IMG/VR virus record: IMGVR_UViG_3300025655_000002
Span: 5,508-69,507 of that record
Length of the DNA stretch: 64,000 nt
DNA from: a virus
Reading direction: 5' to 3' (one strand)
Positions 945 through 63,989 of the stretch are shown here, one piece after another; position 1 is the stretch's first letter; every line of letters begins with the position of its first letter. Under the pieces are notes generated by a model. The model was not told the DNA's origin. It searched no databases and saw only the letters and a list, made by a program, of their open reading frames with translations. Made by a program: the position numbers and the translations under genes.

Positions 945-1606
945 AAGAATTAAAAGAATTAGAGAAATACCTAAACAAAAGAAGTCAGCCTAAAACCTCG
1001 ACTAAAACAGCTGAAGAATGGGAGCTACTAGAGTTTAAAAGGAGATTAAACCAACCTCCCCCAGAATCAATACTACGTAAAAACCCTGAGTACGGGAATC
1101 AGTATATCCCTTTACAATATGTAGAGGTAATGTTAAATATACTCTTTGATTATTGGAGTCCAGTAATGACGCATAAACCAGACTATATAGATGGACAAAC
1201 TGTTTCTTATATAGATGTGATAGTGGGGCATCCAGTGTTAAAAATAAAACAAGTATACTCAGGAACAGCTATCGTAGGCACAATGCCGAATAGCGAAAAC
1301 TATCGTGACGTACATAAAAGAATACCAGCTGGAGAGAGTTTTGCTATACTAAATGCTGTTCAAAAGATTGGCAGGTTATTTAGACCACAACAGGAGGTTT
1401 TCATTTCGGCATTGGATAATTATTTTGAGAAAGAAACAAAAGAAGAAAGAAGCGAGATGTTTGAGACTCTTGAGCGAATGATAAAAGGAATTGATTTAAA
1501 GATTGCTAAAAACAAAATAAAAGTAAGCGGATGGATTAATGATGCTCTTATAGATAAAAATATAACTGAAGAAGAAAGAGACGAATTATTTAAAAAGTTT
1601 TTATAA
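941..1606 (+). CDS. Rad52/Sak-like single-strand annealing protein
   Basis: YIP..YVE..LN..F..W and ESFAILNAVQKIGRLF motifs; directly upstream of an exonuclease. Confidence 0.55.
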   Translation: MKELKELEKYLNKRSQPKTSTKTAEEWELLEFKRRLNQPPPESILRKNPEYGNQYIPLQYVEVMLNILFDYWSPVMTHKPDYIDGQTVSYIDVIVGHPVLKIKQVYSGTAIVGTMPNSENYRDVHKRIPAGESFAILNAVQKIGRLFRPQQEVFISALDNYFEKETKEERSEMFETLERMIKGIDLKIAKNKIKVSGWINDALIDKNITEEERDELFKKFL

Positions 1607-1622
1607 AAATAAAACAATTAAC

Positions 1623-2663
1623 ATGGGTAAAAAAATAAGCTGGAGTAAATATAAATTCCGCTGTTCGGCATTGTATAATATAATGTCAGGAACAGTAGGA
1701 ACAACAGAAGCTGAAAACATAGAACTTCAAGAGCTTCTTCAAAAGGAAAAAGAGGTAATAGGCCTTACTGATAACCAAGTAAAAGAGCTTGATGACCTTA
1801 AAGAGAAAGAAAAGCTAACTGTTAAACAGAAAGCTAAGATAGCTGAATATGAAGAAAGGAAGACTAAAAAGAAAACACTAACTCCTTTACAAACCAAAAG
1901 AAAGGAAGAGTTGATAAAGAAATCTAAAAGTACGGAACTTCCGCAAGGAGTAAAAACATACTTAAGAAATCTTTACAGAGAAGAGACGTATAATAGAAAA
2001 AAGAGGTTAGAGTCTAAATACATCTTAAAAGGAAACCTTCAAGAGAAAGAGGCTACTCAAATGTATAGTGTGTTCAAGCAAACCCCATTTGCAAGAAACT
2101 TTGATAGAGCTTATAATGACTGGATTTCAGGAGAGTATGACTTATATATTGGTAAAGACATTTATAATGTAAAAGAAGGATTTGATACTAAATGTAGTTT
2201 TGATTTATCTACATTTCCTTTTAAAGAAGACCCTCTTGATTGGAACTACTACTGGCAAAACATGGGGTACATGTGGTTGTCTGGAGCTAAAACCTGGACG
2301 ACTGTTTATTGTCTAACGAACACTCCCTCTTCTATGATAGAAGATATGATTTATAGGGAAAAGTTTAGATGGGAAGGAAATGATATTCCTTTATGGAAAA
2401 AGCTAGAGATTATAAACAATAATGTGTTTGACGATAAGTCATTTGCTTCAGAAATTTTAAAGCAAGACGCAATACCGAATCCTGATAGTGAAGACGAGGA
2501 CAATATTAAAGCAGTTGATATTGTAAATAATTTCATCCCTATGGAGCTTCACGAAAGAATAATTGAAAAACAAATGCATTGGGACGAATCTATTCCTGAC
2601 AGAATAAAAGAGAGGATTCGGCATTGTAGAAAATATTTAGTAACTTTAAGCAAACAAAAATGA
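1623..2663 (+). CDS. YqaJ/lambda-exonuclease-like PD-(D/E)XK nuclease
   Basis: FRCSAL, KG..QE, GEYD...DTKCS and YYWQ..GYMWL motifs. Confidence 0.7.
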   Translation: MGKKISWSKYKFRCSALYNIMSGTVGTTEAENIELQELLQKEKEVIGLTDNQVKELDDLKEKEKLTVKQKAKIAEYEERKTKKKTLTPLQTKRKEELIKKSKSTELPQGVKTYLRNLYREETYNRKKRLESKYILKGNLQEKEATQMYSVFKQTPFARNFDRAYNDWISGEYDLYIGKDIYNVKEGFDTKCSFDLSTFPFKEDPLDWNYYWQNMGYMWLSGAKTWTTVYCLTNTPSSMIEDMIYREKFRWEGNDIPLWKKLEIINNNVFDDKSFASEILKQDAIPNPDSEDEDNIKAVDIVNNFIPMELHERIIEKQMHWDESIPDRIKERIRHCRKYLVTLSKQK

Positions 2664-2769
2664 ACTTAGTGGAATTTGAATCATACATGTCTATCATGGC
2701 TTTTATGCTGCTAGCCTACGTTATCTACAAAAACTGGAACGGAGATAATTCTAATCAAAAATAAATATT

Positions 2770-3942
2770 ATGGGTAAATCAACAAGGATGACCAAGAAAG
2801 AGGCTGAATACCTCGGTCTTGAGCCTAAAAACCATAACCAATATAATCTAGGTGAAAAAAATCTCAGGAAACTTTACAAATACAGAGGATATGACGATGA
2901 GCTTATTGAGAGCTGTATAGAAAGAGGTATAAATCCTAATAATGTCGGGCAATATTGGTATAAGTCTAAGCATATTTCCATAAATGTTAAAAAAGACTTA
3001 GAGAATACAAAGGAACAGATTTTAGATAAGTTTGAGCAATTAATTAGCGATATTAAATTCAAACCTATAAAGCTAAAGCCTACAAAAGGTAATAGTAAGG
3101 CCTGTAAGATAACTATAAGCGACTCTCATGTAGGAATGAACCCAAGCCCTGATAAATCTCCACTATTTAAATACGAGTACAACAGTGAGATATATGGAGA
3201 ATCCCTAAATAAAGTCTATGAATCAGTTATAAAAGAGTACAATATTCATGGAGCATTTGATATTTTATTCTTGGATGACCTTGGAGATTTAGCTGACGGA
3301 TGGAATGGGTATACGACCAGGGGAGGACATAAGCTTCCTCAAAACATGACAAATGCAGATGTATTTGAGGTTTGCGTAGACGCTAAAGTAAGATTAATAA
3401 GAAATCTAGTGGAGAGTAGAGTTGCAAACAAAATCATTCTTAGATGTGTGACAAATGATAATCATAGCGGTGATTTTTCCTTGTTAATTAATAAAGCGAT
3501 AGAGAAAATAATAAATCTAATATACGACAAATCACTCGTTAAAGTAGATATACTTACTAAATTTATAGACCACAGGGTTTATGGAAACCATTGCTTTATA
3601 CTTACTCATGGTAAAGATAAGTCTCAAATGAAGTTTGGGCTACCAATTGTTTTAAATGATAAAGCTATAAGGCTTATAAATGATTATATAGACCATTACG
3701 ACATAGATAGCAAGTATATACATGTTGAAAAAGGAGATTTACATCAAATAGGATATCAAAGAACAAAGAAATTTGACTACAGGAATTTCATGAGCTTTGC
3801 CCCTCCTAGTAGCTGGATACAGCATAATTTTGGAGATAGTTATTCTGGATATTCTATTCAAATAATACCTAAAGATAGCAATGAAATTAGTCATACGGAC
3901 TACTTCCTTGATTACAAGAAAATTAGCGATAGGAATTTTTAA
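2770..3942 (+). CDS. Calcineurin-like metallophosphoesterase
   Basis: SDSHVG, GDLADG, NDNH, THG and GDLH motifs. Confidence 0.75.
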   Translation: MGKSTRMTKKEAEYLGLEPKNHNQYNLGEKNLRKLYKYRGYDDELIESCIERGINPNNVGQYWYKSKHISINVKKDLENTKEQILDKFEQLISDIKFKPIKLKPTKGNSKACKITISDSHVGMNPSPDKSPLFKYEYNSEIYGESLNKVYESVIKEYNIHGAFDILFLDDLGDLADGWNGYTTRGGHKLPQNMTNADVFEVCVDAKVRLIRNLVESRVANKIILRCVTNDNHSGDFSLLINKAIEKIINLIYDKSLVKVDILTKFIDHRVYGNHCFILTHGKDKSQMKFGLPIVLNDKAIRLINDYIDHYDIDSKYIHVEKGDLHQIGYQRTKKFDYRNFMSFAPPSSWIQHNFGDSYSGYSIQIIPKDSNEISHTDYFLDYKKISDRNF

Positions 3943-3959
3943 AAAAGCAAAATAAAATT

Positions 3960-5752: not shown

Positions 5753-7339
5753 ATGAAAGAAATTAAACTTGAAGAAGATGCTATAAGCACTCAATTAAAA
5801 GGTATTAACACTGCGGTTGACTTGGTTAAAATATCGATGGGAGCAAGAGGAAGATTAGTTAATATAGACCACGCAGGCGGTATTCATTCTACTTATGATG
5901 GGTTTACTATATTGGCTCATACGGCAATGAAAGACAAATGCGAGGACATGGGGGTAAAGATTGTCCTTGAGGCTGCATCTAAACAAGTAAAGGATTGTGG
6001 AGACGGAACAACATCTGTGTCTGTATTGCTTCAAGCAATAATAAATGAAGGAGTTAAAATGCTGAAGTATGATGCTGATAGGATAAAAGTTATTGAAGGA
6101 ATAAACTTAGCGTCAAAAGAAGCTATTAAAATTATAAAAGAATTGGCTAAGCCAGTAAGCAGAGATTCTCATGAGATAGAGCAAATAGCAAAGGTGTCTG
6201 CCCATGGAGACGAGGATATAGCTAAACTGATAGCTGAGGCAATATCTATAACAAACCATAACTCCATAATTAGGGTTGAAGAGTCTAAAGGGAATACCAG
6301 TTATGTTGACTTAGCAAAAGGAATGAAGGTTGGTTCTGGTTGGTTATCTGGTCTATTTGTCAACAATGGCTCTAAAGGAACTGTAGAGTATGATAACCCA
6401 TTAATCCTTGTGTATGAGGGTAAGATTGAAAGGATGGCTCAGTTGCAGAACTTATTAGAAAAATGTGTTAATGCTAAAAAGCCTATCGTAATAGTTTCAG
6501 ATGATATGGATGGAGAAGTCTTAGCATCTTTAGCTTTAAACGCTAAAAAAGGCCTTCCATTTGCAGCTATTAATCCTTTCGGAGAAACAAGAGAGGACAG
6601 AAAAGAAAGATTAGCTGATTTAGCAGCTTATGTTGGAGGGGAATTAATCTCTCCAGACTTAGGGCATAAGCTTGAAAATATAGATTTAAATCAACTAGGA
6701 ACTTGTGATAGGGTTATTATAGCTAAAAACAACTCTATATTTCAGGACGGAGCAGGGCTTGATACTGAAATTCTTAATGAAAGAATATCTAATTTAGAAT
6801 CGTTGGTAAAAATAACAGACCATACTGTTACTAAAACCTTCTACGAGGCTAGATTAGCGGCATTAAACGGAGGTGTTGCTACTATATACGTTGGAGGTAT
6901 AGTTAGTACTGATGTGGTTGAAAGAAAAGACAGAATAGATGACGCTGTTGGTTCGGCATTGTCTGCTCTTGAAGAGGGAGTTGTTCCAGGAGGAGGAGTA
7001 TCTCTATTACATATATCAGAAGAACTACGTAAATTATCAAGTGATGATAGTGATGTTAATATAGGTATAAGTATATTTAAGAAAGCTGTCACAATGCCGA
7101 TTCGACAAATTTTAACAAACGCAGGAGAATCTGTTGATTTTATAATAGATAAAATTAAAAACAAAAAGTCGAAGAGCTATGGATACAATGTTCATACCAA
7201 AGAATATGTAGACATGATTAAAGAAGGTATATTAGACCCAGCTAAAGTAGAAATAAAAATAATAGAAAACGCAACAATAACTGCTACAAACTTCTTAAAT
7301 ACAGGTGGATTGATAGCTGTTGTTCCTGAAAATAATTAA
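5753..7339 (+). CDS. groEL: Phage chaperonin GroEL (Cpn60)
   Basis: 528 aa; GDGTTS, T.DG.TI, ERKDRIDDA, EEGVVPGGG and GILDPAKV motifs. Confidence 0.95.
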   Translation: MKEIKLEEDAISTQLKGINTAVDLVKISMGARGRLVNIDHAGGIHSTYDGFTILAHTAMKDKCEDMGVKIVLEAASKQVKDCGDGTTSVSVLLQAIINEGVKMLKYDADRIKVIEGINLASKEAIKIIKELAKPVSRDSHEIEQIAKVSAHGDEDIAKLIAEAISITNHNSIIRVEESKGNTSYVDLAKGMKVGSGWLSGLFVNNGSKGTVEYDNPLILVYEGKIERMAQLQNLLEKCVNAKKPIVIVSDDMDGEVLASLALNAKKGLPFAAINPFGETREDRKERLADLAAYVGGELISPDLGHKLENIDLNQLGTCDRVIIAKNNSIFQDGAGLDTEILNERISNLESLVKITDHTVTKTFYEARLAALNGGVATIYVGGIVSTDVVERKDRIDDAVGSALSALEEGVVPGGGVSLLHISEELRKLSSDDSDVNIGISIFKKAVTMPIRQILTNAGESVDFIIDKIKNKKSKSYGYNVHTKEYVDMIKEGILDPAKVEIKIIENATITATNFLNTGGLIAVVPENN

Positions 7340-7522: not shown

Positions 7523-7872
7523 CACTGATTATATTTTTGATAACGAGTGCATTTATAGTGTTTACAGCCTTAATAGATGCATCTCACATATTAGAAGGTC
7601 AATATTTCAAAAGCCATAACTACAGGTTTTTACAGAGAGCATGCTTCTTTATTGTTGTTTTTATTTATAATTGGCAAATCGGCATTGCATCAATATTATT
7701 ATTTATAGCTCTATTTGATTCTGTATTAAATATACTGTTGGAGTCTCCTTTATTTTATCTTGGAACCACTTCTAAATGGGATAAGTTCTTTAGGAAGAAT
7801 AAATGGCTTCAAATACCAGTTAAATTAACCGCATTTATCATTAGCATTTATTTATTTATAAATGAAATGTAA
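7519..7872 (+). CDS. Membrane protein
   Basis: Several hydrophobic segments. Confidence 0.6.
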   Translation: MTLIIFLITSAFIVFTALIDASHILEGQYFKSHNYRFLQRACFFIVVFIYNWQIGIASILLFIALFDSVLNILLESPLFYLGTTSKWDKFFRKNKWLQIPVKLTAFIISIYLFINEM

Positions 7873-8431: not shown

Positions 8432-9020
8432 AAGAAATCAATCTTTTATACCCAAGACTAATCATGGGAGCATTATTTGATAAGTTGTACCCTACACCGA
8501 GCTCTGCTTGCCATCCTTTTTTACTAACGAAGTCAGCGCCCATGGATATAGAGTTAAATCCAGGATAAACTGTAGCGTTACCGCCAAAATAAACTTGATT
8601 AACCCTTACTTTCTCTACAATTATGCTCTCTATTGTGTCTACTCTTGTTATTTCAGGTATCAATGCCGAATACTCAAAACTAATTGAATCAGGCCTTTCT
8701 TTAGCCCATACACCTAATGTAGCATTGATTACAGAATCATTTTTTTCATACATGTATCCTACGCTGAAATCTGACGAATCGGTATTGTATACAGTATCTG
8801 TATGATAATGATGAAAATCCCTATCTCTATAAACTACTGTATCCCTCCATGTGAAAACGGTATCAGGACTACCTTTTATATAAATAGTAGTTGTGTCTCT
8901 CTTAATAACCTCTGAGCCTCCATTTAATATACTTCCAATAGGAGATTCACACTTATTAATTAATAGTAAAATTAAGATAATTGATACTATCCATCCAATA
9001 TTCTTTTTAAGAAAATCCAT
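8418..9020 (-). CDS. Probable spanin-like lysis accessory protein
   Basis: N-terminal TM helix, DT-rich repeats, beta-rich C-terminus; lies downstream of holin and endolysin. Confidence 0.45.
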   Translation of the reverse strand: MDFLKKNIGWIVSIILILLLINKCESPIGSILNGGSEVIKRDTTTIYIKGSPDTVFTWRDTVVYRDRDFHHYHTDTVYNTDSSDFSVGYMYEKNDSVINATLGVWAKERPDSISFEYSALIPEITRVDTIESIIVEKVRVNQVYFGGNATVYPGFNSISMGADFVSKKGWQAELGVGYNLSNNAPMISLGYKRLISFRKR

Positions 9021-13338: not shown

Positions 13339-13364
13339 CATTTTTTTTATTCAATGCCGATTAG

Positions 13365-16300
13365 CTATCTAGAATTTCTTTCCGACCTCCTAGAACTTCT
13401 TCCTCCACCTCTTTTGCTTCCGTCCAAATCCTCTCCAGTTATAATCTTCCATAGTTTATCATTTTTATCTGGATATTTAGCAGCCTCTTCCTCTGTTGTC
13501 CAGTTAAATACTGCATCAAAGAAATCTTTTCCATCTTCATCTTTAGCGGCCTTTTCTAAATTAGACCACTGCTTCAAGAAAGAGTCAGCAGGTATTAGTT
13601 TTATTATTTTATTTTTTTCAGAATCACTTAATTCATCCCATGGCTTACCTATAGCCATAACCTCAGCAGCTGTAGATATAGAGCCACTAATGTTGCCTAT
13701 TTCTTGAAGCAAAGGAATGGTATTTTTCCAGTCCTCACCTCTTAAGTTGTTGATTGCGAAGTTGGTAACTATACCAGTCATACCAAAACCATTAAGTATA
13801 GATTGAATATTATCTGCAATTGTAGCATAAACGCCTTTCTTAGCTTCCTCTTCATCGTCAAAACCTTTAAATAATTCTTTTATCATCCCATTAGTAACCA
13901 TAGCGAAACCAACGTTAGCCACAGAGTAATAAGCTATATCATAAACAGCTTGAACCTTCTCTTCGTTAGATAACTCTGATTTAGATGTTAAAACTCTTAC
14001 GGCTGCCTTTAATTTATTTGTTGTTTGTGTTTGAGAGGTTGTAAACGCACTAAACAACCTGAATACTCTATCTCTTTGCATGTGAGATGTTTCTTGAGCT
14101 CTTGTAGATTGCTGTGCAGACTCTGATTCGTTAACAAATTTCTCATAAGCTATATCTATAGCCTCTTCATGGCTTTTTCCTTTTGCTTTTTCCTTTCTAT
14201 AGACAGCTAAAGCTAACGGAGCCCCGCCTAAAAGAACACCACCTATATCCCCAACGGTTATTGGAGACATGGCTATCCTTGTGAATGTTCTAGCGAATCT
14301 TTTACTTAAAGACCCTTTAGATGAATTTAAAAGTCTATTTACCTCTATATCAAAGCTTCTTCCTTGCATTCTTCTTTTAACGTATGGAGAAGTCCATATT
14401 TCAGCAAATACTTTTGCGTCATTTCTTGTTATAGGAACAAACCCTGTCAGCCACTCGTGAAATCTGACTCCGCTAGCTGTAGAGAAGTGAGTGAATGAAG
14501 TAAGCTGCTTCGGTATTGAGGCTAATTTAAAAGCAAGAGACCCAAATATCTTGTATGTCATCATTTGATTAACAATAAAGTCAAATGAATTTGATTTTGC
14601 AGCCCTTGGGTCTTGGCCAGTTATAACTACTCCTAAATGGTCTCTAAGTTTATTAAAGTTGACAGTACCTATTTTCTTAACTATTTCTGCAGAGTTTACT
14701 GAGTTAAATATAGCGTTAACCTTTTCTCCAACTGGAACAAACTGTCTCGCTCTCTCCATTGTTGAAATGTAATTCATGGCAACCTCGTGAGCTCCTATAG
14801 ACGTGTTAACTCCTAAGTTATGATTAACTCTTTGTTTTAGATTTCCTGCTACTGCGTCTTTATAATTTAGATTGCCATTATCATCCATTAATTGACCATT
14901 ATCTATTATCTCTCTATTGGTCGTCTCAGCAAACCTTGGGTAATAAACTCCCTCTGGAAACTTAGTGTTAGTTAAATGTATGTATGTTGGCTCGTAATCA
15001 TCTTTCATTGATGGGTAAAAATCCTCTATTAAATAATCAGAATACTCTTTGAGCTCTTTATTTCCTTCAATGTATTCAAATAATTGTTTTATCCCGTCCT
15101 TATCGAAGCCAGACTTTAATAATTTCTCGTAACCTTCTGTGATAGGTATTCCATTTGAATCAGTCTTAGATTCCTTATTACCAGAACGAGCTATATTATA
15201 AAGGTTAACAAGCGTGCTATTTGAAGGAGGCTCAAGGTAATCTTCTATTGGATTTATATCTGCATTCTTTCCTAGAATGTTTAACGCAATAGATTTTTTT
15301 CCAAATATTTTTTTAATGTCAGAAAGGTATTTGTTTTTCTTTCTATACACCTCTTCTTCCATGTTAAAGTCAGCAGTATTTACACTTTCCTTTAAATCAG
15401 TCATCTCTTCACGTAGTGCTTTACTGCCTTTAAATACAGGAATCATATTATTCCATAAGTTGTTCTTTGCTGTGAATGGATTTAGCTTTTGATAAAGAGC
15501 TCTCAATGGACTCTCGTTTACTTTAGCTACAGACATTTTAGGTGTGCTATATATGTCTATATCCTTGAAGTCACTATCATGGTCTTTTAAATATTCTTCC
15601 AATGCCGATTTGCTAGATATAAGCTGGCCATCAAGAACAACTGATTTATTTTGCTTTTCTAAATACTCTACAACTTCTTCTTTAGAATTAGCTTTTTTTG
15701 ATGGTTTAGAGCCTTCCTTTAGAGCTAAAAATGTCTTTGCTGATTTTCTTCTTTTTATAGAATTAGTAAACCTTTTATTAACAGCAACCTCTTGTCTTCC
15801 AGCTTTAAGAATGTCTTTAATTAAAGAATGAGTCTGTTCTAATTCCATCAACGACATTCCATCCAACATGCTAAGGTCAAAATTAGATATAAAGTCCTGA
15901 ACCTCAATAGGAACCTTTCCTTTCCATTTTTTACCAACCTTTCTTGCTATCGATTTTTTGTTAGTAATTAATCTTGCTATTCTGTCTTTCGTTTTTTCTG
16001 ATTCTCTTTTAGATACTTTTTCAGCTATTTTATCTATCCTGTCTAAAATAACGCTTGGGTCAGCCCCATTTTCTAGCTCTGTTATTAGCGGAGTCCATTC
16101 ATGTTTATATTGCTCTGCTTTAGGTATAACGCCTCTAGCATAAGCCGAGAAACTATCAACATCTTTTCCATCTCCATCAAGATTAGGTCTTTCAGTTGTT
16201 TTTGGAGGTTTTGGTGGCTCTTCTATTTTCCCTTCTTTTGCATCACTTTGTTTTAACTTATCAGATAAAACAACCCTATCTGGCATTACAAAGTATTCTG

Positions 16301-27011: not shown

Positions 27012-27625
27012 TTATCTATAGAGTTGTTTTCTTCATCATCCTGAATACCAAGAGTTCTTGCGTACTTTTCAAACACTTGTTCAATAACCTCGTTAACCAT
27101 GTCTACAGGAATATTTAAGTCATCATCCTCTTCAATGCTATCTAAAGGAAGTGTCATTGTTATATTCACCGTTTCTGGTAAATTTGTTTTTGTCATGTTA
27201 ACAAAATATATCCTAGCTCCTTCTCTGTAGAATCCAGTATTGCCCTCTAAACTAGAAGACTGAAGATTACTGTAAAGGTCATTAAATCCTAGCTGAACTT
27301 CAACAAATCCTCTACCTCTTGGAGTTCCTATTCTTTTTATATCTACTCCGTAAGGAAGAGATATAGTTGAAGATGGAACTGATGTGTAATATTCTTTTCT
27401 TATATTATCTTTCAATACCGAATTGCCAGATATAGTGTAATAAACACTTCCGTCAATCTCGCTAAAATCCACACTTTTACTTTCAAAGAATCTAACTCTT
27501 ATGAGGGACGCTAGAGACTGATGAACTGATAGCATTAATTCTCTTTCGTCAATACTAAATTCGTCAGTATAACCTCTGAGTCTCCTTGATATTTGTTCCG
27601 CTATTTTAGATTTACTTGTTAACAT
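27008..27625 (-). CDS. Tail ring protein
   Basis: Size and synteny in crAss-like tail module. Confidence 0.55.
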   Translation of the reverse strand: MLTSKSKIAEQISRRLRGYTDEFSIDERELMLSVHQSLASLIRVRFFESKSVDFSEIDGSVYYTISGNSVLKDNIRKEYYTSVPSSTISLPYGVDIKRIGTPRGRGFVEVQLGFNDLYSNLQSSSLEGNTGFYREGARIYFVNMTKTNLPETVNITMTLPLDSIEEDDDLNIPVDMVNEVIEQVFEKYARTLGIQDDEENNSIDK

Positions 27626-43819: not shown

Positions 43820-44216
43820 TGTTATAGTTAATAAAACTTTCTACAGACATGTCTCCTTTAAGCATCTCTTGTTCTTCTATAATCTCTTCTTCAGTTATAT
43901 TTTTTTCTAATATCTCTGCTTGCTTTGTGTATTCTGGTAGTTTGTCTATGAATTTCTGAACTCTTTCAAATGCTTTTTCATCCTTATCAGTCAATGCCGA
44001 TTGGCTGATTATGTCTACATGGATTTTAGTTCCAGGTTCATTTGGATTATCTATCTCTATGCCATTAAGGACGAGCTTTGTTGTGTCGTCAATAATCTTT
44101 TTATAAGTAAGATAACTCTTAACTCTTAGTTTTTTGGGGGAGAATTTACTGATTTTATCTTCAAGGTATTCTATATATTTACCCTGTTCTCCAGACAGCT
44201 TAGTTGGTCTTTCCAT
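43812..44216 (-). CDS. Probable terminase small subunit
   Basis: 134 aa helical protein overlapping the terL start. Confidence 0.45.
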   Translation of the reverse strand: MERPTKLSGEQGKYIEYLEDKISKFSPKKLRVKSYLTYKKIIDDTTKLVLNGIEIDNPNEPGTKIHVDIISQSALTDKDEKAFERVQKFIDKLPEYTKQAEILEKNITEEEIIEEQEMLKGDMSVESFINYNNG

Positions 44217-45505: not shown

Positions 45506-45784
45506 CTATTTTTTACCTCTATTTCTAGCTCTGTTTTTTGATAGCCCTTCTAAAACCATGCCTCCTGACTTTGTGTGAGACGCATCCTTACCATCGCCTA
45601 CTTTGGAGTTTGGGTTGTTTGAGTTGAACCTATTTAGACTAGACCTGTAGATTCTTCTTGATTTTGAACTATGGTATTCTTTGTTATATGAATTTTTCTT
45701 AGCTCTAGCCTCTGGATTGTTTTGATAATACAATGCCGACTTGCTATTTCCGTTGGTTGTCCCTGCTAATTTGTTTCGTGCCAT
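45506..45784 (-). CDS. Small basic HNH-like protein
   Basis: GDGKDASH...NRARN motif. Confidence 0.5.
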   Translation of the reverse strand: MARNKLAGTTNGNSKSALYYQNNPEARAKKNSYNKEYHSSKSRRIYRSSLNRFNSNNPNSKVGDGKDASHTKSGGMVLEGLSKNRARNRGKK

Positions 45785-49860: not shown

Positions 49861-50460
49861 TAAATCACTGGTTATCAGCTCGTTAATGTATTGATTGATA
49901 ACAAATATAGTTGAAATTTGCCAAAAGAAAAGCTATTTTGCATAGTTGGAGCGTTTAACGTTTGTGTTGCGTGTAGTTTTTATATAAAATATGCGCTTAT
50001 TTGTTTGTGGTAGCCTTTCTCCCGATATTTCTATGCTCTTTACCTATTGTTTACCCTTGTTGTATTCCTGCTTTGTTCTTTTGTGTTGGTTGTTATGTTA
50101 GTATGTTATTGTTTATTGTTTCTCTTATGGTATTTAGTCTTTTGCCTATATCATACAATGCCGAACAGCCGAATATATTTACACGTATTTTTACACCTAA
50201 AATAAGCTAGTTAAAACCTCTATTTTTTGCTCGATTACCAATAAAAATCACTTTTACAGCGATGAACATAAAAATTATTCTCATTGATACTCAGATAGTT
50301 ACATAGTTTTATCGAATTTTTTTACATTTTTTTTATTTTTTCTGCTTCGTAAATAGAACATAGACCACTTAAATAACTAATAGTCAGCACGTTATCCTCG
50401 CCAAATCAAAGCAAAATGAATCGATGCAAAATCGTTAAGTCACTGAGTATCAGCACATTT
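49861..50460. promoter_or_regulatory. Four ~25 bp imperfect palindromes (operator/iteron-like)
   Basis: Copies at 49861-49885, 50278-50302, 50370-50394 and 50436-50460; consensus TAA.T.ACTG....TCAGC.CGTTA. Confidence 0.5.
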
Positions 50461-50502: not shown

Positions 50503-50674
50503 AAACGTTCTTTACATACTGATAAACTAATAACACATAGAGTAACATATAGCACCTCTTACTTGTTATAGTTCTTAAGATAGACAACATTAGAAGTAAT
50601 GGTAAAACAGGCACACTAAGATAGTATTAGAATACAATACCGAACTGACAAATTTAAACGTTCATTGACATACT
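50503..50674 (+). promoter_or_regulatory. Two boxA-like antitermination elements
   Basis: aaacgttctttacatact (50503-50520) and aaacgttcattgacatact (50656-50674). Confidence 0.45.
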
Positions 50675-51200: not shown

Positions 51201-51350
51201 CATAAAAAAGAATAAGTTATGAGTACTAAAATATTAAGAATAGAAGGTAGTTATGAGATAATTGGCTTCTTTAGAAATGGAGTAAAACTACGTGAACGTA
51301 GAAGAAGAATATTAAATTAATACAATACCGAATCGTAAAATATATTTGTT

Positions 51351-51983: not shown

Positions 51984-52020
51984 TACAATACCGAACCGTA
52001 AAATTTAAACACTAGAAATT

Positions 52021-52604: not shown

Positions 52605-52790
52605 ATGAAGACTTATAAATACCCATTCAGAAATAAAAAACTGAGTAGAACGCAAGTAAAAAACAATATACTTGCAGTACTAAAAGAGGCTGATAATGAT
52701 AGCTTTATTTTTGGGCAACAATGGTACACAGAAGCTAATAATATAGCTAAAAAGTTGAAAGTTAATACAATACCGAATAGTCAAATTTAA
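52605..52790 (+). pseudogene. Truncated duplicate of the 5' end of ORF 51351-51983
   Basis: About 50 codons largely identical, then runs into the CAATACCGAA repeat and stops. Confidence 0.7.
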
Positions 52791-53101: not shown

Positions 53102-53131
53102 CACAATACCGAACTGTTAAAAATAAACATC

Positions 53132-53323: not shown

Positions 53324-53363
53324 ACTATAATTAACACAATACCGAACTGTTAAATTTAAACCA

Positions 53364-53582: not shown

Positions 53583-53739
53583 ATTTTCTATTTGAATTAA
53601 ACAGAATATTATTAGCAGAAGAATTGTTTTATTATTCTTTCATTGAGCATAATGACATTAATAGTGACTATTCGGCATTGGCTGATACTGAAACAACATA
53701 TTTATTAACTAATTATAAATTCTCTAAAAACTAGAAATT

Positions 53740-54851: not shown

Positions 54852-55049
54852 CCTAGTTGGTCTAGTTATTATTAATCTAGCAACTAAAGCAGTTATCAAT
54901 TTTAGTGAATTATCATCACAAGTTAGAGACTTGATAATTCACAACTTTTATTAACAGGAGGTAGAAAGCCACCCCTTAGATGGGTGCGCCTCCTAGTCTT
55001 AATCAATAATTAATACAATACCGAATAGTCAAATTTAAAACTAGAAATT

Positions 55050-55628: not shown

Positions 55629-55821
55629 TACAATGCCGAACAGCCAGTTAGATTTATTCACTATCACGCCTGCTGAGGTTAAAGCTAAGTTTTACGCTGC
55701 CTCATATAAAAGGGCTGAAGAAAGAAAAAAGAAAGAAAGAGACTGCTCTTCTGACTTTATATCTATAAAGACTGGAGAATGTAGACCTTTTAAGAAAGAG
55801 GATTTTAAACTTAAAAAATAG
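55615..55821 (+). CDS. Hypothetical protein
   Basis: ORF. Confidence 0.45.
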   Translation: MKINNTMPNSQLDLFTITPAEVKAKFYAASYKRAEERKKKERDCSSDFISIKTGECRPFKKEDFKLKK

Positions 55822-56033: not shown

Positions 56034-56161
56034 AATCGGCATTGTATGATAAACTTAATAATGGCGTACCACTGGAGAAATAGTGGTATAAGAGGAACTT
56101 TCAACGAAGAACTCTATAAAAGAATATTAGAAGTAAAATTGTTTAACGAAAACAAGTAAAG

Positions 56162-56428
56162 ATGAAAACAGTAGAGATAACAATCGCAAACAAGAGAATA
56201 GTAAAAAAGACTGACAAGGGTATTGTGTTCTCTGTAGATGGATATAATGGAGGTATTTTCACTATCCCATTTATAGCAATAGAATCTCAAGAAGAAGGAG
56301 TTATTCCTGTTAATGATGTTAGTAGTTATGAAGCAGTAGTCTATGTAATACATAGATGGCTGTATGAAAAAATAAAAGGTAGTTTAGATAGAATGAGTAA
56401 GGCTCATTTTACAATGCCGAATCGTTAA
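56162..56428 (+). CDS. Hypothetical protein
   Basis: ORF ending in a repeat copy. Confidence 0.55.
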   Translation: MKTVEITIANKRIVKKTDKGIVFSVDGYNGGIFTIPFIAIESQEEGVIPVNDVSSYEAVVYVIHRWLYEKIKGSLDRMSKAHFTMPNR

Positions 56429-56687: not shown

Positions 56688-56875
56688 AATAAATAGAATA
56701 TACCGCTATGAAAACGCATCAATTATTAAGTAGTTATACCTTTATTGGAAGTAGTCCTGTTTTGAGTGGTTTTATCCTTATAGGTTATTCGGGGGCTAGG
56801 GTTAGAAGTCATATTAGTTATATTTCAATGAATTAATACAATGCCGAATAGCGATAAAAAATTGGAGGATTAAAT

Positions 56876-57112: not shown

Positions 57113-57124
57113 AAGAAAAAACAC

Positions 57125-57856: not shown

Positions 57857-57892
57857 TACAATACCGAATCGTTGAATTTAAAACTTTAAGTT

Positions 57893-58470: not shown

Positions 58471-58508
58471 AAATCGCTGTTCGGTATTGTCTAATTAAAA
58501 TATTATTG

Positions 58509-59496: not shown

Positions 59497-59817
59497 CACG
59501 TTTTAATGTGCTTATTTTAAAGTATATAAAATTAAAACAAGCATAGATTATGGGGATGAGATAATATGTGCTTTGAATCAGAAAAACGCAGGCAGAAAGA
59601 CAAAGAAAAAAGGTTTAATATGACTAAACAAAACTAACATCATGATACAGATATATTTTATAATGGCAGCATTAGTGACTTCGCTATTCTTTTTACATGA
59701 TAGAAACTGTCACAAGAAATGGTACAACTACTACGAAGCAACTGTATTTATAGTAGCTTCTTTTATAGTATTATTTACTCCATACATAAATTACTTCATT
59801 ATTAAGTTAGGATTACA

Positions 59818-60327
59818 ATGAGAAAGAAAATAGACTGGATTGAGTATGGGGGCAACATGGAGTACGACCCGTCTAACGAAAGTTTCCAGTTCGCAATAAT
59901 AGATGGTGGAAAAGTTCAAAAGACTTGGAGTGGTTTAAAAGTAAAACTTGATGATAGTGAGAAAGAGATAAAGCCAACGCACTACAGGGTAGTTCCAAGA
60001 GTTAAGCACAAAACAGACTCCACTAAAATTCACGAACTTTTGATGCGTGAATCGGTATTGTATAAATATATCCGAGAAGAAAAAGGAATGACTCAGTGGA
60101 TGGATATAGCTAGAGAGCTAGGAATGGAAAGCACTGACATATATAACATATTTATGCGACCACTCAACACTCTATCTATAAAACAAATGCTAAGGCTAAA
60201 AAGAATGCTTCCAGAATTAGAAATGTCTCAAATGCTTAATATGCTACTACCAAGAGTAAGAGGATGGTGGGAATTTGAGACCTGGGAACATGATGAATTA
60301 AAAGAAAGATATAGGAATCCTGATTAG
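59818..60327 (+). CDS. Protein with C-terminal HTH-like domain
   Basis: IREEKGMTQ..DIARELGM...LSIKQMLRL. Confidence 0.55.
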   Translation: MRKKIDWIEYGGNMEYDPSNESFQFAIIDGGKVQKTWSGLKVKLDDSEKEIKPTHYRVVPRVKHKTDSTKIHELLMRESVLYKYIREEKGMTQWMDIARELGMESTDIYNIFMRPLNTLSIKQMLRLKRMLPELEMSQMLNMLLPRVRGWWEFETWEHDELKERYRNPD

Positions 60328-62080: not shown

Positions 62081-62476
62081 ATGGAAGATGAAAAAAAGAT
62101 ATTAGTTATCGGAGAAAATATACCTACCAATTCGGCATTGAGTAAACATAACTCAATAGTAAAAGGAAAGATAAACGCTGAACTATTTAAAGAATCATTC
62201 CTTAAAGATGCAGAACTAGCAATGAAAAAGCTAGAAGAACACAACGAAATAGAATCTAAAAGAAAGAATAACAAAGTATTCTACATACAGGGATTTGCAG
62301 TAATAGGAATTAGCAGATTAAAAGCAAGCAAAAAACTAAGAAGTATAATGGGGAGAATTATACTTAATCCAGATGTTGAATTTGAACAACTAAAAGATAC
62401 CATGATAGCTATTCGTAATAACGCAATGCCGAATCAGCCTGAAGATTCAGCGAATAGTGTGGGAATCTCAAAATAA
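62081..62476 (+). CDS. Hypothetical protein
   Basis: ORF containing two motif copies. Confidence 0.55.
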   Translation: MEDEKKILVIGENIPTNSALSKHNSIVKGKINAELFKESFLKDAELAMKKLEEHNEIESKRKNNKVFYIQGFAVIGISRLKASKKLRSIMGRIILNPDVEFEQLKDTMIAIRNNAMPNQPEDSANSVGISK

Positions 62477-62778: not shown

Positions 62779-62779
62779 C
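62549..62779 (+). mobile_element. Cassette-like unit
   Basis: gttacccaccgtt / aatggtgggtaac inverted ends (12/13), followed by attC-like hairpin 62776-62824. Confidence 0.6.
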
Positions 62780-62894
62780 ACCAAGATATGAAACGTCTTT
62801 AGATGTTTTTATATCGGCTGTTAGAAGCCGTTTTAATGGATTATATTCTTACTAAACCCTACGTGAAATTGATTATTAATTAAATCATAACCTA

Positions 62895-63332
62895 ATGAGT
62901 AACATGAATGAAGAAGAGATATGGATTCCTGTAAATGGCTGCCCCGACAGAGAGGTTAGTAGTTTTGGCAGATTTAGAAGAAAGCTTAAAAACGGAAGAT
63001 ATAAATTTGTTAACCCATACTTTAGCAAAAGAAATAAAGAATGCATGATTAAGCTCCCAGATGGTCAGGCTTCAGCTAAAAGACTTGTTGCTGAGCACTT
63101 TGTTGAGAATCCAAGTGAAGGTATATATGTTAAAAGCAGAGACGGAAATCCTTTAAATATAAGACCAGAAAACTTATACTGGACAAACTATTCTGGAGGA
63201 GGTTATACTTCTGAATTAAAAATAGAAAATGACAATATTCCATTAAGCGTAACCATTGGAGCTTGGACTGGCTCAAAAGAAAGAGCTTCATATAAAGTAA
63301 TGAATAAACTTGATAATTATTATGGAAACTAA
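62895..63332 (+). CDS. NUMOD4/HNH homing-endonuclease-like protein (probably degenerate)
   Basis: EEIWIPV.G....EVSSFGR (NUMOD4); RLVAEHF..NP...DGNP.N....NL.W, lacking the catalytic His. Confidence 0.7.
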   Translation: MSNMNEEEIWIPVNGCPDREVSSFGRFRRKLKNGRYKFVNPYFSKRNKECMIKLPDGQASAKRLVAEHFVENPSEGIYVKSRDGNPLNIRPENLYWTNYSGGGYTSELKIENDNIPLSVTIGAWTGSKERASYKVMNKLDNYYGN

Positions 63333-63744
63333 ATATTACCAACCGACATTTGAAGACTTCATCCCAGGATTAGAGTATGAATATTTCGATGGAATGAAGT
63401 GGACTAAAAAAACTTATAATAGTCTTAGCCATAGAGCAGACGGAAGCATGAGCTTAATGCATGACCTTATATTAAGAAAAGAAAGGTTTAGGGTTAAGTA
63501 TTTGGACAAGCAAGATGGAATAGAATTAGGTTTATCTTATCTAGATTATGAAGAAAAAGATTTACTATACTATGGTTTTACTAAAAGAGTGGCAGCCGTA
63601 GATTATGTTATAAATATACCAGTTGCTGACTTTGATTCTGACATAGAAATAGCCAGTGATGAAGGAGATGTTTTTATTGGTAGGGTTAAAAATAAAACAG
63701 AATTAAAGAGAATACTAAAACATATTGGGTTATGGGAAAAATAA
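63310..63744 (+). CDS. Hypothetical protein (start probably METKYY)
   Basis: KYY.P..E.F..G.EYE...RVKYLD..D...LG...F.G..KN..EL..IL motif. Confidence 0.6.
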   Translation: MIIIMETKYYQPTFEDFIPGLEYEYFDGMKWTKKTYNSLSHRADGSMSLMHDLILRKERFRVKYLDKQDGIELGLSYLDYEEKDLLYYGFTKRVAAVDYVINIPVADFDSDIEIASDEGDVFIGRVKNKTELKRILKHIGLWEK

Positions 63745-63989
63745 TGATAGTGATTTCGTTTGGGTTTATGGTTTTGTTCTTTTTACATGAGTTAAAATTA
63801 TCCAATGCCGAATCGGCAAAGTATAAAGAATTTTGGGAAGAATCTGAATCTGACAAATCGGCATTGCAAGAAGAGGTATGGGATGTATCATGTGCTAATA
63901 TAATAATGATTAACACCATGTGTAAAAGAGACCAAAAGAAACTAAAGAATAACAACGATTACTTAGATGTAATAGATAAAATTAATTGA
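63732..63989 (+). CDS. Membrane-anchored hypothetical protein
   Basis: N-terminal TM helix. Confidence 0.5.
   Translation: MGKIMIVISFGFMVLFFLHELKLSNAESAKYKEFWEESESDKSALQEEVWDVSCANIIMINTMCKRDQKKLKNNNDYLDVIDKIN

What the first reader, a model, noticed from the sequence alone, without database searches (positions are those of the whole stretch)
1281..63866. Genome-wide over-represented 9-mer CAATRCCGA written into coding sequence
Seen (hand count ~41). + strand: 1281, 2470, 7092, 8661, 13352, 15600, 19002, 23264, 24672, 27413, 31906, 39910, 43992, 45731, 50156, 50635, 51323, 51986, 52768, 53104, 53337, 55016, 55631, 56412, 56839, 57859, 62424, 63803. - strand: 1406, 1665, 2618, 6953, 7679, 8779, 14510, 53672, 56036, 58481, 60052, 62132, 63858. 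A rough base-composition estimate (~31% GC) predicts fewer than one copy. Inside genes it is often accommodated as TCG-GCA-TTG/TCG-GTA-TTG (ISALD, CSALY, GSALS, YSALI, KSALE, DSALS, ESALD, NSVLK, QSALT, KSALY, ESVLY, NSALS, KSALQ), using a CpG codon otherwise scarce here. It occurs even in groEL, portal and tail genes. Inference: a selected, asymmetric DNA signal bound by a phage or host protein (genome coating or protection, DNA entry, packaging, Chi-like recombination or partition), analogous to uptake sequences or KOPS.
Basis: partly seen in the sequence, partly recalled or inferred. Interest (0 to 1): 0.8.

Follow-up and report, generated by a model that had tools for sequence, protein, structure and literature searches.

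The report
Phage-wide polar control word CAATRCCGA
A nine-letter DNA word is written about fifty times into this small phage genome, even inside genes at the cost of rare codons, and most likely marks where a phage regulator meets the host's RNA polymerase.

Summary
CAATRCCGA occurs 41 times in the window, against 0.35 in shuffles, and 48 times in the 69.4-kb phage genome. It is the commonest 9-mer there. Synonymous-codon shuffles give 1.3 intragenic copies against 35 seen. Sixteen of 25 Ser-Ala-Leu tripeptides are spelled TCGGCATTG. Half of all codon-compatible places (35 of 70) carry the word.

The word is the almost invariant core of an asymmetric element of about 28 bp. On the other strand this reads TAnnTTTG-N5-TCGGYATTG-TAT, a Bacteroidetes sigma-A -7 promoter box with the core where transcription would start.

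Copies fall into three regimes:
- One copy sits at nearly every junction of the small-gene early block.
- Late genes hold copies of one polarity (11:2).
- Replication genes hold mixed copies (7:14).

The nearest relative keeps the word and its polarity (8 of 8) but mostly not the positions. A more distant relative has a different word (42 copies) with a -7 box at one fixed distance. None of the 462 Bacteroidia genome searches showed enrichment.

My best reading (about 0.4) is a stoperator-like array of binding sites for an unidentified phage regulator of host RNA polymerase. A Chi-, uptake- or primase-like signal remains possible. No reader protein was found and no RNA data could be reached.

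The parts
1281..1289 (+). core copy, replication block, in 221-aa ORF, CAAT.. on the coding strand; -7 box 1 mismatch
1406..1414 (-). core copy, in 221-aa ORF, coding strand reads TCG-GCA-TTG (ISALD)
1665..1673 (-). core copy, in 346-aa exonuclease ORF, coding strand TCG-GCA-TTG (CSALY)
2470..2478 (+). core copy, in 346-aa exonuclease ORF, CAAT.. on the coding strand
2618..2626 (-). core copy, near the end of the 346-aa ORF, TCGG.. on the coding strand (frame 2)
6953..6961 (-). core copy in groEL, coding strand TCG-GCA-TTG (GSALS)
7092..7100 (+). core copy in groEL, CAAT.. on the coding strand; -7 box 1 mismatch; forms an inverted pair with 6953
7679..7687 (-). core copy in 117-aa ORF, TCGG.. 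on the coding strand (frame 1, QIGIAS); -7 box 1 mismatch
8661..8669 (+). core copy, first gene of the late block (200-aa ORF on the - strand), coding strand TCG-GCA-TTG; perfect -7 box
8779..8787 (-). core copy in the same 200-aa ORF, opposite polarity (one of 2 exceptions in the late block)
13352..13360 (+). core copy in the 55-nt spacer between the stop of the 2083-aa gene and the start of the 163-aa gene; the relative G002 has a copy of its own word at the matching gene junction
14510..14518 (-). core copy in the 2083-aa virion gene, opposite polarity (second exception in the late block)
15600..15608 (+). core copy in the 2083-aa gene, coding strand TCG-GCA-TTG (KSALE)
19002..19010 (+). 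core copy in the 2083-aa gene, coding strand TCG-GCA-TTG (DSALS)
23264..23272 (+). core copy in the 1319-aa muzzle-like gene (frame 1, EFGIGN); position shared with relative G001 (its 729)
24672..24680 (+). core copy in the 1319-aa gene (ESALD); no copy at the matching place in G001
27413..27421 (+). core copy in 205-aa ORF (NSVLK); G001 has CAATACCAA at the matching place; -7 box 1 mismatch
31906..31914 (+). core copy in 580-aa ORF (FFGIET); G001 has CAACACCGA at the matching place
39910..39918 (+). core copy in the portal gene (LIGIEK); position shared with G001 (its 15896)
43992..44000 (+). core copy in 134-aa ORF (QSALT)
45731..45739 (+). core copy in 92-aa ORF (KSALY)
50156..50164 (+). 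core copy in the 1.8-kb non-coding region; -7 box 1 mismatch on the - strand, pointing towards the leftward small genes
50635..50643 (+). core copy in the non-coding region; perfect -7 box TAAATTTG on the - strand
51323..51331 (+). early-block junction copy: stop triplet 2 nt upstream, ATG 19 nt downstream; -7 box 1 mismatch
51986..51994 (+). early-block junction copy: stop 2 nt upstream, ATG 26 nt downstream; -7 box 1 mismatch
52768..52776 (+). early-block junction copy lying where a truncated duplicate of the DUF7178 gene loses homology; perfect -7 box; ATG 25 nt downstream
53104..53112 (+). early-block junction copy: stop 2 nt upstream, ATG 19 nt downstream; -7 box 1 mismatch
53337..53345 (+). 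early-block junction copy: ATG 18 nt downstream; -7 box 1 mismatch
53672..53680 (-). core copy in a 51-aa ORF of the early block, opposite polarity (YSALAD)
55016..55024 (+). early-block junction copy: ATG 25 nt downstream; perfect -7 box
55631..55639 (+). early-block junction copy, 2 nt after the stop of the 117-aa ORF
56036..56044 (-). intergenic copy of opposite polarity, 2 nt after the stop of a 68-aa ORF and 117 nt before the next ORF
56412..56420 (+). early-block copy in the last codons of an 88-aa ORF; ATG 48 nt downstream
56839..56847 (+). early-block junction copy: stop 2 nt upstream, ATG 28 nt downstream (the - strand 91-aa ORF called here is probably spurious)
57859..57867 (+). early-block junction copy: stop 2 nt upstream, ATG 25 nt downstream
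58481..58489 (-). first copy of the other arm, 10 nt after the last early ORF and just before a terminator-like hairpin (58598-58630)
60052..60060 (-). core copy in 169-aa ORF (ESVLY)
62132..62140 (-). core copy in 131-aa ORF (NSALS)
62424..62432 (+). core copy near the end of the 131-aa ORF, CAAT.. on the coding strand
63803..63811 (+). core copy in 85-aa ORF; forms a convergent pair with 63858 (46 nt between); here TGCCGAATCGGCA is a palindrome
63858..63866 (-). core copy in 85-aa ORF (KSALQ), partner of 63803

Best explanation
CAATRCCGA is the nearly invariant core of an asymmetric control element of about 28 bp that belongs to this phage lineage. On the complementary strand the element reads TA(H)(H)TTTG - 5 nt - TCGGYATTG - TAT. 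That is a Bacteroidetes sigma-A type -7 promoter box followed, where transcription would begin, by the core. I propose that the core is the binding site of a phage-encoded, sequence-specific regulator, probably monomeric because the site is asymmetric, that acts on the host RNA polymerase. At the 14 of 48 copies with a good -7 box it would work as an operator over the start site. These are mainly the junctions of the small-gene early block and the large non-coding region. At the copies without a box, written into replication and late genes, it would sit in the path of transcription as an orientation-dependent block or anchor. That is the logic of the stoperators of cluster A mycobacteriophages. 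Orientation would then decide which transcription is let through, sense or antisense. This would explain why late genes carry nearly all copies one way and the early block carries them the other way relative to its genes. Shown here: the excess, the selection at DNA level, the long asymmetric element, the fixed -7 box in two phages with different words, the polarity, the turnover, and the absence from the host-type genomes searched. Inferred: that a protein binds, that it is phage-encoded, which direction is blocked, and the effect on timing.
For: 1. DNA-level selection. There are 35 intragenic copies against 1.31 in synonymous shuffles. S-A-L tripeptides number 25 against 6.8 expected. Of 70 codon-compatible places, 35 carry the word.
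2. All-or-none core. Beyond the 48 copies, only 6 windows score above 9 bits with a 28-nt matrix, and only one of them (26.0 bits) scores as high as a typical copy.
3. Flanks are conserved even in the 24 copies antisense to the ORF that holds them. Counts are T-5 18/24, T-2 17/24, T+10 19/24, G+12 13/24 (background 0.12), T+20 17/24 and A+21 16/24.
4. A TAnnTTTG box sits at one fixed distance. It is perfect in 4 of 48 copies and has at most 1 mismatch in 14 of 48, against a background of 0.012 per position. Outside the early block the figure is 6 of 30.
5. The relative G002 (TerL 37% identical) has another word, AAWCGGGCG, in 42 copies. Its box lies 3 nt upstream of CGCCCGWTT in 13 of 42 copies (at most 1 mismatch; background 0.006). 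None of the 17 other offsets tested in that direction had more than 3 such copies.
6. The geometry fits Flavobacterium johnsoniae promoters, which have T-12 A-11 T-8 T-7 T-6 G-5, 4-5 nt to the start site, and a weak -33 element (PMC6847099, passages seen).
7. Polarity by block is late 11:2, early plus non-coding 12:2 and replication 7:14. The contrast between the two arms gives Fisher p = 0.0003. G001 has 8 of 8 copies on one strand.
8. Positions turn over. Two of 5 window copies in the alignable stretch and 2 of 8 G001 copies are shared, and several matching places carry one-letter near-misses.
9. In the early block, 9 of 10 copies have a stop triplet 2 nt upstream and 8 of 10 have an ATG 18-28 nt downstream. 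These are the short intergenic spaces where stoperators lie.
10. [quoted passage not shown] Their orientation follows transcription and is required for function (PMC9283540, abstract and passages seen).
Against: No reader protein was identified.
- Pfam scans of 58 of about 97 ORFs found one Cro/C1-type HTH protein (73 aa, window 48193-48414, - strand). They found no sigma factor, RNA polymerase or L5-type repressor.
- Four candidates had no sequence relative in the PDB.
- The one non-structural protein of unknown family shared with G002 ends in an acidic ...DLPF tail and looks like an SSB, not a regulator.

Most copies (35-37 of 48) lie inside genes, unlike stoperators. Polarity relative to transcription is not uniform. 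The early block is opposite to the late block, and the replication block shows no significant bias once codon opportunity is counted (12 of 18 against 6 of 9 compatible places).

In the early block the -7 boxes point against the genes, which is odd for ordinary promoters. The late-gene copies mostly lack a box: 0 of 8 in G001 have at most 1 mismatch.

If the two phages' elements are aligned by the -7 box, the polarity in late genes is opposite in G000 and G002. If they are aligned by the shared CCGAWYnG, it is the same, but the box then lies on the other side. A matrix comparison could not decide: scores were 8.58 and 8.34 against a null 95% value of 8.38.

Occupancy of half of all compatible places looks more like 'more copies are better' than like a set of regulatory sites. 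No RNA or binding data could be reached.
Confidence: 0.4

Rival explanations
1. A polar DNA-metabolism signal rather than a transcription signal. This would be a phage-specific counterpart of Chi, KOPS or uptake sequences, or the recognition site of the phage's own primase-helicase or of a nicking HNH enzyme. A motor or enzyme moving along one strand would read it, so density and orientation would matter but position would not.
For: Density is 1 per 1.4 kb. Half of all codon-compatible places are occupied, in both orientations in the replication block. Positions turn over while number and strand are kept. The core is strict with weaker flanks, as in uptake sequences (recalled). The two-arm strand pattern is 23:4 against 7:14, with switch points at the convergent gene junction (about 8.4 kb) and at the end of the early block (about 58.5 kb). 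The phage encodes a primase-helicase, exonucleases, an Mre11-like nuclease, a junction endonuclease and two HNH endonucleases.
Against: The word is not enriched in the 61 and 401 bacterial genomes searched, so it does not mimic a host Chi, KOPS or uptake word there. The element spans about 28 bp, far longer than known Chi or KOPS words or primase sites (recalled). This reading does not explain a host-type -7 box at one fixed distance in two phages. Nor does it explain one copy at nearly every early-gene junction at fixed distances from stop and start codons. The second arm is mixed rather than reversed. No origin-like repeats were seen at the 58.5-kb switch point.
Confidence: 0.2
2. The element is a promoter read in the CAATRCCGA direction by a polymerase form not recognised here, such as host RNA polymerase with a phage factor or an unrecognised phage polymerase. 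It would drive each small early gene from its own promoter. The copies inside replication and late genes would make antisense ('anti-late') RNA early in infection.
For: Twelve of 14 copies in the early block and non-coding region point with the early genes, 18-28 nt before the ATG in 8 of 10 junction copies. The junction consensus TAATACAATACCGAAYHG has the length and AT-rich ends of a T7-type promoter ending in G (the comparison is recalled). Eleven of 13 late-block copies would then be antisense. Two copies precede a long non-coding stretch (50156, 50635), and the crAss-like phage phi14:2 makes abundant early non-coding RNAs (bioRxiv 10.1101/2020.03.07.982082, passages seen).
Against: No RNA polymerase or sigma factor was found. 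The 2083-aa virion protein lacks a DFDxD motif and groups with giant 'polyvalent'-type proteins. There is no host-type promoter box in this direction; the only box lies on the other strand. Early genes must be read by the unmodified host enzyme at the start of infection unless a factor is injected. In G002 the copies with the best boxes point with downstream genes in the opposite reading of the element.
Confidence: 0.15
3. A recombination or cassette-shuffling site. The repeated element at early-gene junctions would mediate gain, loss and exchange of small gene cassettes, either by homologous recombination between copies or through the 189-aa tyrosine-recombinase-like protein.
For: The early block is an array of small co-oriented ORFs, each followed by the element. 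A duplicated 5' piece of the DUF7178 gene loses homology about 10 nt before the element at 52768. The phage encodes an integrase-like protein. Adjacent copies no more than 310 nt apart are inverted in 9 of 11 cases.
Against: This does not explain 35 copies written into conserved genes through rare codons, nor their strand bias in late genes. The site has no inverted arms of the kind tyrosine recombinases use, and it forms no hairpin: 0 of 6 elements folded better than shuffles. Recombination between inverted copies inside genes would be harmful.
Confidence: 0.05
4. An RNA-level signal. UCGGYAUUG in replication and late mRNAs, and its complement CAAURCCGA between early cistrons, would be read as RNA, as processing, stability or translation signals, or by pairing of early with late transcripts.
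For: Orientation relative to genes differs by gene class. The junction copies lie 18-28 nt before start codons, in an organism group without Shine-Dalgarno sequences (PMC6847099 abstract).
Against: Twelve of 37 intragenic copies have the other orientation. The replication block shows no preference once codon opportunity is counted. The conserved flanks include a DNA promoter box on one strand. No structure is predicted.
Confidence: 0.05

Closest known systems
Stoperators and operators of cluster A mycobacteriophages (L5 gp71 type repressor)
   Same: Both are asymmetric sites present in more than twenty copies across a phage genome of about 50-70 kb. In both, some sites lie at promoters and others in short spaces next to stop and start codons. 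In both, orientation is tied to transcription. In mycobacteriophages the words are lineage-specific and evolve with the repressor (PMC9283540 passages; PMC6550527 seen in the search listing only).
   Different: Here 35-37 of 48 copies lie inside coding sequence and are forced in through rare codons. The early block has the opposite orientation to the late genes, and one block is mixed. The host is a Bacteroidota bacterium with a different promoter grammar. No homologous repressor was found. Binding and elongation block are untested. Lysogeny is not shown.
DNA uptake sequences of Neisseria and Haemophilus (DUS/USS)
   Same: Both show a strict 9-12 nt core with weaker flanks, about one copy per kb, many copies inside genes in preferred frames, effects on protein sequence, and lineage-specific dialects. 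All of this is recalled and not checked in a paper here.
   Different: Those are bacterial chromosomal words read by the competence machinery. This one is confined to a phage genome, was not enriched in the 462 bacterial genome searches, is strand-polar over 50 kb, and is linked to a promoter box.
Chi and KOPS polar words
   Same: Both are over-represented, strand-polar words tolerated inside genes.
   Different: Chi and KOPS are 5-8 nt host words that are enriched in the host chromosome (recalled). This element is about 28 bp and was not enriched in any genome searched.
Conserved middle/late promoter motif of crAss-like phages (phi14:2)
   Same: Both are phage-specific conserved motifs built on host-polymerase promoter blocks plus an extra block, in phages of Flavobacteriia and Bacteroidales (bioRxiv 10.1101/2020.03.07.982082, passages seen).
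   Different: [quoted passage not shown] Here most copies are intragenic and many are antisense. I could not see the motif sequence of that study because it is in figures and supplements.

Membership tests
Stoperator/operator array (cluster A mycobacteriophage type) | Asymmetric binding word present in more than twenty copies across the genome | tested here: met
   There are 48 copies. The flanks are asymmetric, and only one copy (63803) has a palindromic context.
Stoperator/operator array (cluster A mycobacteriophage type) | Orientation correlates with the direction of transcription throughout the genome | tested here: inconclusive
   Late genes are 11:2 one way. The early block is 12:2 the other way relative to its genes. 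The replication block is 14:7, which is not significant and is explained by codon opportunity.
Stoperator/operator array (cluster A mycobacteriophage type) | Sites at promoters and in short intergenic spaces | tested here: inconclusive
   Fourteen of 48 copies have a -7 box with at most 1 mismatch, and 9 of 10 early junction copies lie 2 nt after a stop triplet. However, 35-37 of 48 copies lie inside ORFs.
Stoperator/operator array (cluster A mycobacteriophage type) | A repressor homologous to L5 gp71 (HTH plus stoperator domain) is encoded | tested here: not met
   No such family appeared in Pfam scans of 58 ORFs. Four candidate proteins had no PDB sequence match. About 39 ORFs were not scanned with Pfam.
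Stoperator/operator array (cluster A mycobacteriophage type) | Bound repressor stops elongation in one orientation only | not testable with these tools
   This needs reporter and binding assays.
Bacteroidetes sigma-A promoter | -7 box TAnnTTTG 4-5 nt upstream of the start site | tested here: inconclusive
   The box is present at one fixed offset in 14 of 48 copies (at most 1 mismatch). Four or 5 nt after it lies the W before TCGG or the T of TCGG. No start site could be mapped.
Bacteroidetes sigma-A promoter | -33 element TTTG | tested here: not met
   There is no conserved column 15-30 nt upstream of the box. The element is also weak in F. johnsoniae (PMC6847099 passage).
Chi site | Over-represented in the host chromosome | tested here: not met
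   The 9-mer reached at most 174 copies per 3.0 Mb (reversed control 45) in 61 genomes. The 13-mer reached at most 44 per 7.4 Mb in 401 genomes. The true host is unknown and may not be in the sample.
Chi site | Short word of 5-8 nt read by RecBCD or AddAB | tested here: not met
   The conserved span runs from -6 to +21, about 28 nt. Recognition by the nuclease is not testable here.
Hairpin-type signals (N4 virion-polymerase promoters, integron attC, single-strand origins, intrinsic terminators) | Stable stem-loop in one strand | tested here: not met
   I folded 6 of the 48 elements as DNA. None folded better than its shuffles, with z-scores from -0.86 to +1.50.
T7-type single-subunit polymerase promoter | The phage encodes a single-subunit RNA polymerase | tested here: not met
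   No match appeared in PHROGs or Pfam for the large proteins. A simple motif search for the polymerase B motif (R...K then YG) in all 11 proteins over 400 aa found none, and isolated [TD]xxGR or HD[SAC] strings occurred only in 3 proteins.

The most novel reading that the evidence does not exclude
The word is a 'self' mark of the phage chromosome. A phage-encoded reader, possibly delivered with the DNA, would recognise a private word of 9 letters plus flanks. Selection has pushed that word to near-saturation, filling half of all codon-compatible places and reshaping protein sequence. Each lineage would speak its own dialect: CAATRCCGA here and AAWCGGGCG in G002. The same word would serve both as start-site operator and as a polar signal along the DNA. 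It would be a phage counterpart of uptake sequences or Chi, letting the phage tell its own DNA or transcripts from the host's.
Probability: 0.15. Interest if true: 0.85.

Novelty: new variant of a known kind. Interest (0 to 1): 0.68.

Why it matters
If the reading holds, this is a genome-wide, orientation-dependent control system in a Bacteroidota phage. Gene regulation in this group is almost unexplored. The signal is strong enough to override codon usage and to change protein sequence. It would extend the stoperator principle from temperate actinophages to an unrelated phage group with a different promoter grammar.

It also gives a handle for experiments. The target is a 28-bp element with an all-or-none 9-bp core, there are two natural dialects, and there is a clear prediction for where RNAs start or stop. 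If the signal is instead a DNA-metabolism mark, it would be a phage-private Chi- or uptake-like word, which I do not know to have been described. A library search for the four spellings of the word listed only unrelated papers among the 15 shown of 825 hits.

In practical terms, such words mark lineage membership in metagenomes. They also warn that synonymous recoding of phage genes can destroy function.

Tried and rejected
1. Host Chi or uptake-word mimicry. This was rejected for the genomes searched. The count includes two genomes marked unpublished (G246 with 8 copies, G162 with 3). The conclusion does not depend on them.

2. Virion RNA polymerase of the crAss type in the 2083-aa protein. 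There is no DFDxD motif and no PDB or Pfam polymerase match. Its relatives are giant multi-domain virion proteins.

3. Hairpin signals. Zero of 6 elements fold better than their shuffles.

4. Known RNA families and tRNAs. Nothing above chance was found in 48.8-60 kb, and there are no tRNAs in the window. The generic sigma-70 and terminator scan was uninformative: 66 promoter-like sites against 53.5 in shuffles.

5. A general trait of the phage group. It is not one. G066-G069 and L199-L204 have no dispersed word. G066's top word is a 15-nt tandem repeat inside one gene.

6. Close relatives found through the junction consensus. Of the 114 stretches found, the 80 listed each held a single chance match.

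7. Which orientation of G002's word corresponds to ours. This is undecided: matrix scores were 8.58 and 8.34 against a null 95% value of 8.38, and my first scoring scheme was useless.

8. Its acidic ...DLPF end suggests an SSB.

9. Origin-like repeats at the 58.5-kb switch point. None were convincing.

10. The orientation p-values printed used my miscounts (14:2 and 16:2). They are replaced.

11. Supplementary files of the phi14:2 paper, which hold the motif lists, were not opened, so its motif could not be compared.

Full report
WHAT THE WINDOW IS. The window is 64,000 of the 69,507 bases of a virus record. The last 127 bases of the record repeat the first 127, an overlap that says nothing about the physical ends. 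The genes mark a tailed phage of Bacteroidota:
- portal, large terminase and virion proteins;
- a 1319-aa protein with the C-terminal domain of the crAss muzzle protein;
- GroEL and a GroES fusion;
- a primase-helicase, exonucleases, a junction endonuclease, HNH endonucleases and an integrase-like protein.

The terminase is less than 30% identical to those of Flavobacterium, Cellulophaga and Maribacter phages.

The genes form three blocks in window coordinates:
- Late genes lie on the - strand (8,418-49,499).
- A 1.8-kb non-coding stretch plus an array of small ORFs lies on the + strand (49,500-58,470). I call this the early block by analogy only.
- Replication and repair genes lie on the + strand from 58.5 kb, across the record ends, to 8.4 kb.

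THE OBSERVATION. All 41 listed copies are exact. Shuffles give 0.35. The genome has 48 copies, and CAATGCCGA is its most frequent 9-mer. Synonymous shuffles give 1.31 intragenic copies (maximum 5 of 200) and codon permutations give 0.34, against 35 observed.

The cost is visible in the coding sequence:
- Eighteen of the 64 TCG codons in the genome open an in-frame copy.
- Sixteen of 25 S-A-L tripeptides are spelled TCGGCATTG.
- S-A-L itself is 3.7 times commoner than in residue shuffles (25 against 6.8, maximum 16 of 300).
- Of the 70 places where the protein sequence would allow the word by synonymous spelling, 35 carry it.

Copies occur in five of the six frame-and-orientation combinations, roughly in proportion to amino-acid opportunity. 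The signal therefore acts at the nucleic-acid level and not at the protein level.

ANATOMY. The word is the core of a longer asymmetric element: W T n A T A - CAATRCCGA - W Y n G n C A - nnnn - T A. The flanks are conserved in the 24 copies antisense to the ORF that holds them, against a frame-matched background. The core is all-or-none. A 28-nt matrix finds only one further site that scores like a typical copy, plus five weak ones. Six sampled elements show no hairpin.

Read on the other strand, the element is TAnnTTTG - 5 nt - TCGGYATTG - TAT. TAnnTTTG is the -7 box of the Bacteroidetes housekeeping sigma factor. In Flavobacterium johnsoniae it lies 4-5 nt before the start site, and the -33 element is weak (PMC6847099, passages seen). 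The box is perfect in 4 of 48 copies and has at most one mismatch in 14 of 48. The background is 0.0008 and 0.012 per position. Outside the early block the figure is 6 of 30. Genome-wide the box is not enriched: 108 against 91 in shuffles. If the box is functional, the core would occupy the first 9-10 transcribed bases.

DISTRIBUTION. By strand of CAATRCCGA, the late block has 11 + and 2 - copies, the early plus non-coding block has 12 + and 2 -, and the replication block has 7 + and 14 -. A 50-kb arm at 23:4 thus faces a 19-kb arm at 7:14 (Fisher p = 0.0003).

Relative to genes, the late genes carry TCGG.. on their coding strand, while the early block carries CAAT.. on the coding strand, at gene junctions. 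In 9 of 10 early junction copies a stop triplet lies 2 nt upstream, and in 8 of 10 an ATG follows after 18-28 nt.

In the replication block both orientations are filled equally once opportunity is counted: 12 of 18 against 6 of 9 compatible places. Its + copies come close to - copies. Genome-wide, adjacent copies no more than 310 nt apart are inverted in 9 of 11 cases. The A form of the word is commoner in the early block (8 of 14 copies) than elsewhere (9 of 34).

RELATIVES. The closest record, G001, is a 19,952-nt fragment about 70% identical at the DNA level and colinear with window 22.6-43.9 kb. It has 8 copies, all on the same strand as here. Only two positions are shared (23264 and 39910). 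At other matching places one genome has the word and the other has a near-miss, such as CAATACCAA or CAACACCGA. So number and polarity are kept while positions drift. A 6.6-kb marine scaffold (L198) has 2 copies.

A more distant complete genome, G002, has a terminase 37% identical and many shared virion genes. It has only 2 copies of this word but 42 copies of its own, TTACCAAAWCGGGCGCnnCAAA, 29 on one strand and 13 on the other. It too has TAnnTTTG at one fixed distance from the core, in 13 of 42 copies with at most 1 mismatch. None of the 17 other offsets tested in that direction had more than 3 such copies. Ten of its intergenic copies lie 2-14 nt after a stop codon, and the copies with the best boxes point towards downstream genes.

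Four other complete relatives and six metagenome fragments show no such dispersed word.

I could not decide which orientation of the G002 element corresponds to ours. Aligning by the -7 box gives the same architecture but opposite polarity in late genes. Aligning by the shared CCGAWYnG gives the same polarity, and it matches a copy at the same gene junction (the end of the giant gene). It puts the box on the other side, however.

HOSTS. In 61 genomes of the order of a Flavobacteriales genome that carries a related terminase, the 9-mer reaches at most 174 copies per 3.0 Mb, against 45 for the reversed control. In 401 Bacteroidia genomes the 13-mer form reaches at most 44 copies. That is 58 and 5.9 per Mb, against 692 and 432 per Mb in the phage. 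The true host is unknown and may be outside the sample. Two of the 401 genomes are unpublished (G246, G162), and the conclusion does not rest on them.

INTERPRETATION. Four facts point to a phage-encoded, sequence-specific reader that works with the host RNA polymerase:
- the strict asymmetric core;
- the private dialects in two related phages;
- the absence of the word from host-type genomes;
- a host promoter box at a fixed distance in both phages.

The nearest described system is the operator and stoperator array of cluster A mycobacteriophages. There a monomeric repressor binds more than twenty asymmetric 13-mers, at promoters and in short intergenic spaces. It stops elongation only in one orientation (PMC9283540, abstract and passages seen).

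I therefore read the copies with a box as start-site operators and the copies without a box as polar stops or anchors. Orientation would choose which transcription passes, sense or antisense. I hold this at about 0.4.

The rivals are:
- a phage-private Chi-, KOPS-, uptake-, primase- or nick-type signal (0.2);
- a promoter read in the CAAT direction, giving early sense and anti-late RNAs (0.15);
- a cassette recombination site (0.05);
- an RNA-level signal (0.05).

LIMITS. No expression data and no closer genomes could be used. Gene calls are my own simple ORF picks. Temporal classes are inferred from gene content only.

Noticed in passing
window 49500-51218: A 1.8-kb stretch without ORFs lies between the divergent gene blocks. 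It contains a G-rich run (about 49700-49790) and a region of about 550 nt with higher GC (50650-51200) that follows the element copy at 50635. No Rfam family matched. It may encode a non-coding RNA like the abundant early ones reported for phi14:2.
   Followed up: partly
window 52605-52790 versus 51351-51983: The 61-aa ORF is a duplicate of the first 155 nt or so of the 210-aa DUF7178 gene, about 85-90% identical. Homology ends about 10 nt before the element copy at 52768. This is a rearrangement scar at an element.
   Followed up: yes
window 49263-49499 (-) and 59212-59451 (+): Two paralogous ORFs of 78 and 79 aa share an N-terminal stretch (KIAxDLxQGTITxxxARTxLLGLLGVS). They flank the early block in inverted orientation. 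No family matched either. My automatic gene call had picked the wrong strand at the second one.
   Followed up: partly
L001 5186-5836 (+), running into window 1-329: A 216-aa protein with 7 database relatives and a homologue in G002 ends in an acidic tail with an invariant LPF, the hallmark of bacterial SSB tails as I recall it. It is probably the phage's single-strand DNA-binding protein.
   Followed up: partly
window 13365-19616 (-): The 2083-aa virion protein shares a stretch of about 250 aa at 55-73% identity with more than 100 giant proteins of 1,300-3,600 aa. Those proteins carry varied extra domains such as PF18760, PF23802, PF18857 and a ParB-like nuclease domain. It looks like a 'polyvalent' cargo protein. 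It has no DFDxD polymerase motif.
   Followed up: partly
window 48193-48414 (-): This 73-aa Cro/C1-type HTH protein is the only recognisable transcription regulator found. It lies in the leftward small-gene operon next to the non-coding region.
   Followed up: partly
window 58921-58939 and 59522-59540: A perfect 19-nt direct repeat, GTATATAAAATTAAAACAA, occurs twice, 601 nt apart. The first copy runs straight into an ATG triplet and the second lies 11 nt before one, and the ORF at 58996 starts 57 nt after the first copy. It may be a second kind of leader or promoter element. A terminator-like hairpin lies at 58598-58630.
   Followed up: no
window 5753-7339 (+) and 45802-46866 (-): The phage encodes its own GroEL and a 354-aa protein whose C-terminal part matches GroES. 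G002 has a homologue of the latter.
   Followed up: no
G066 (L071), record positions 68151-68353: The top word of this relative (ATAGCGGG) is not dispersed. Fourteen of its 16 copies form a tandem array with a 15-nt period inside a 290-aa gene.
   Followed up: yes
late-block intergenic spacers, e.g. window 13331-13338, 36271-36278, 41617-41624, 44241-44248, 45478-45485 (all - strand): Ordinary host-type -7 boxes without the word lie 20-30 nt upstream of several late-gene starts (portal, the 342-aa gene and others). The phage therefore appears to have at least two classes of host-type promoter.
   Followed up: partly
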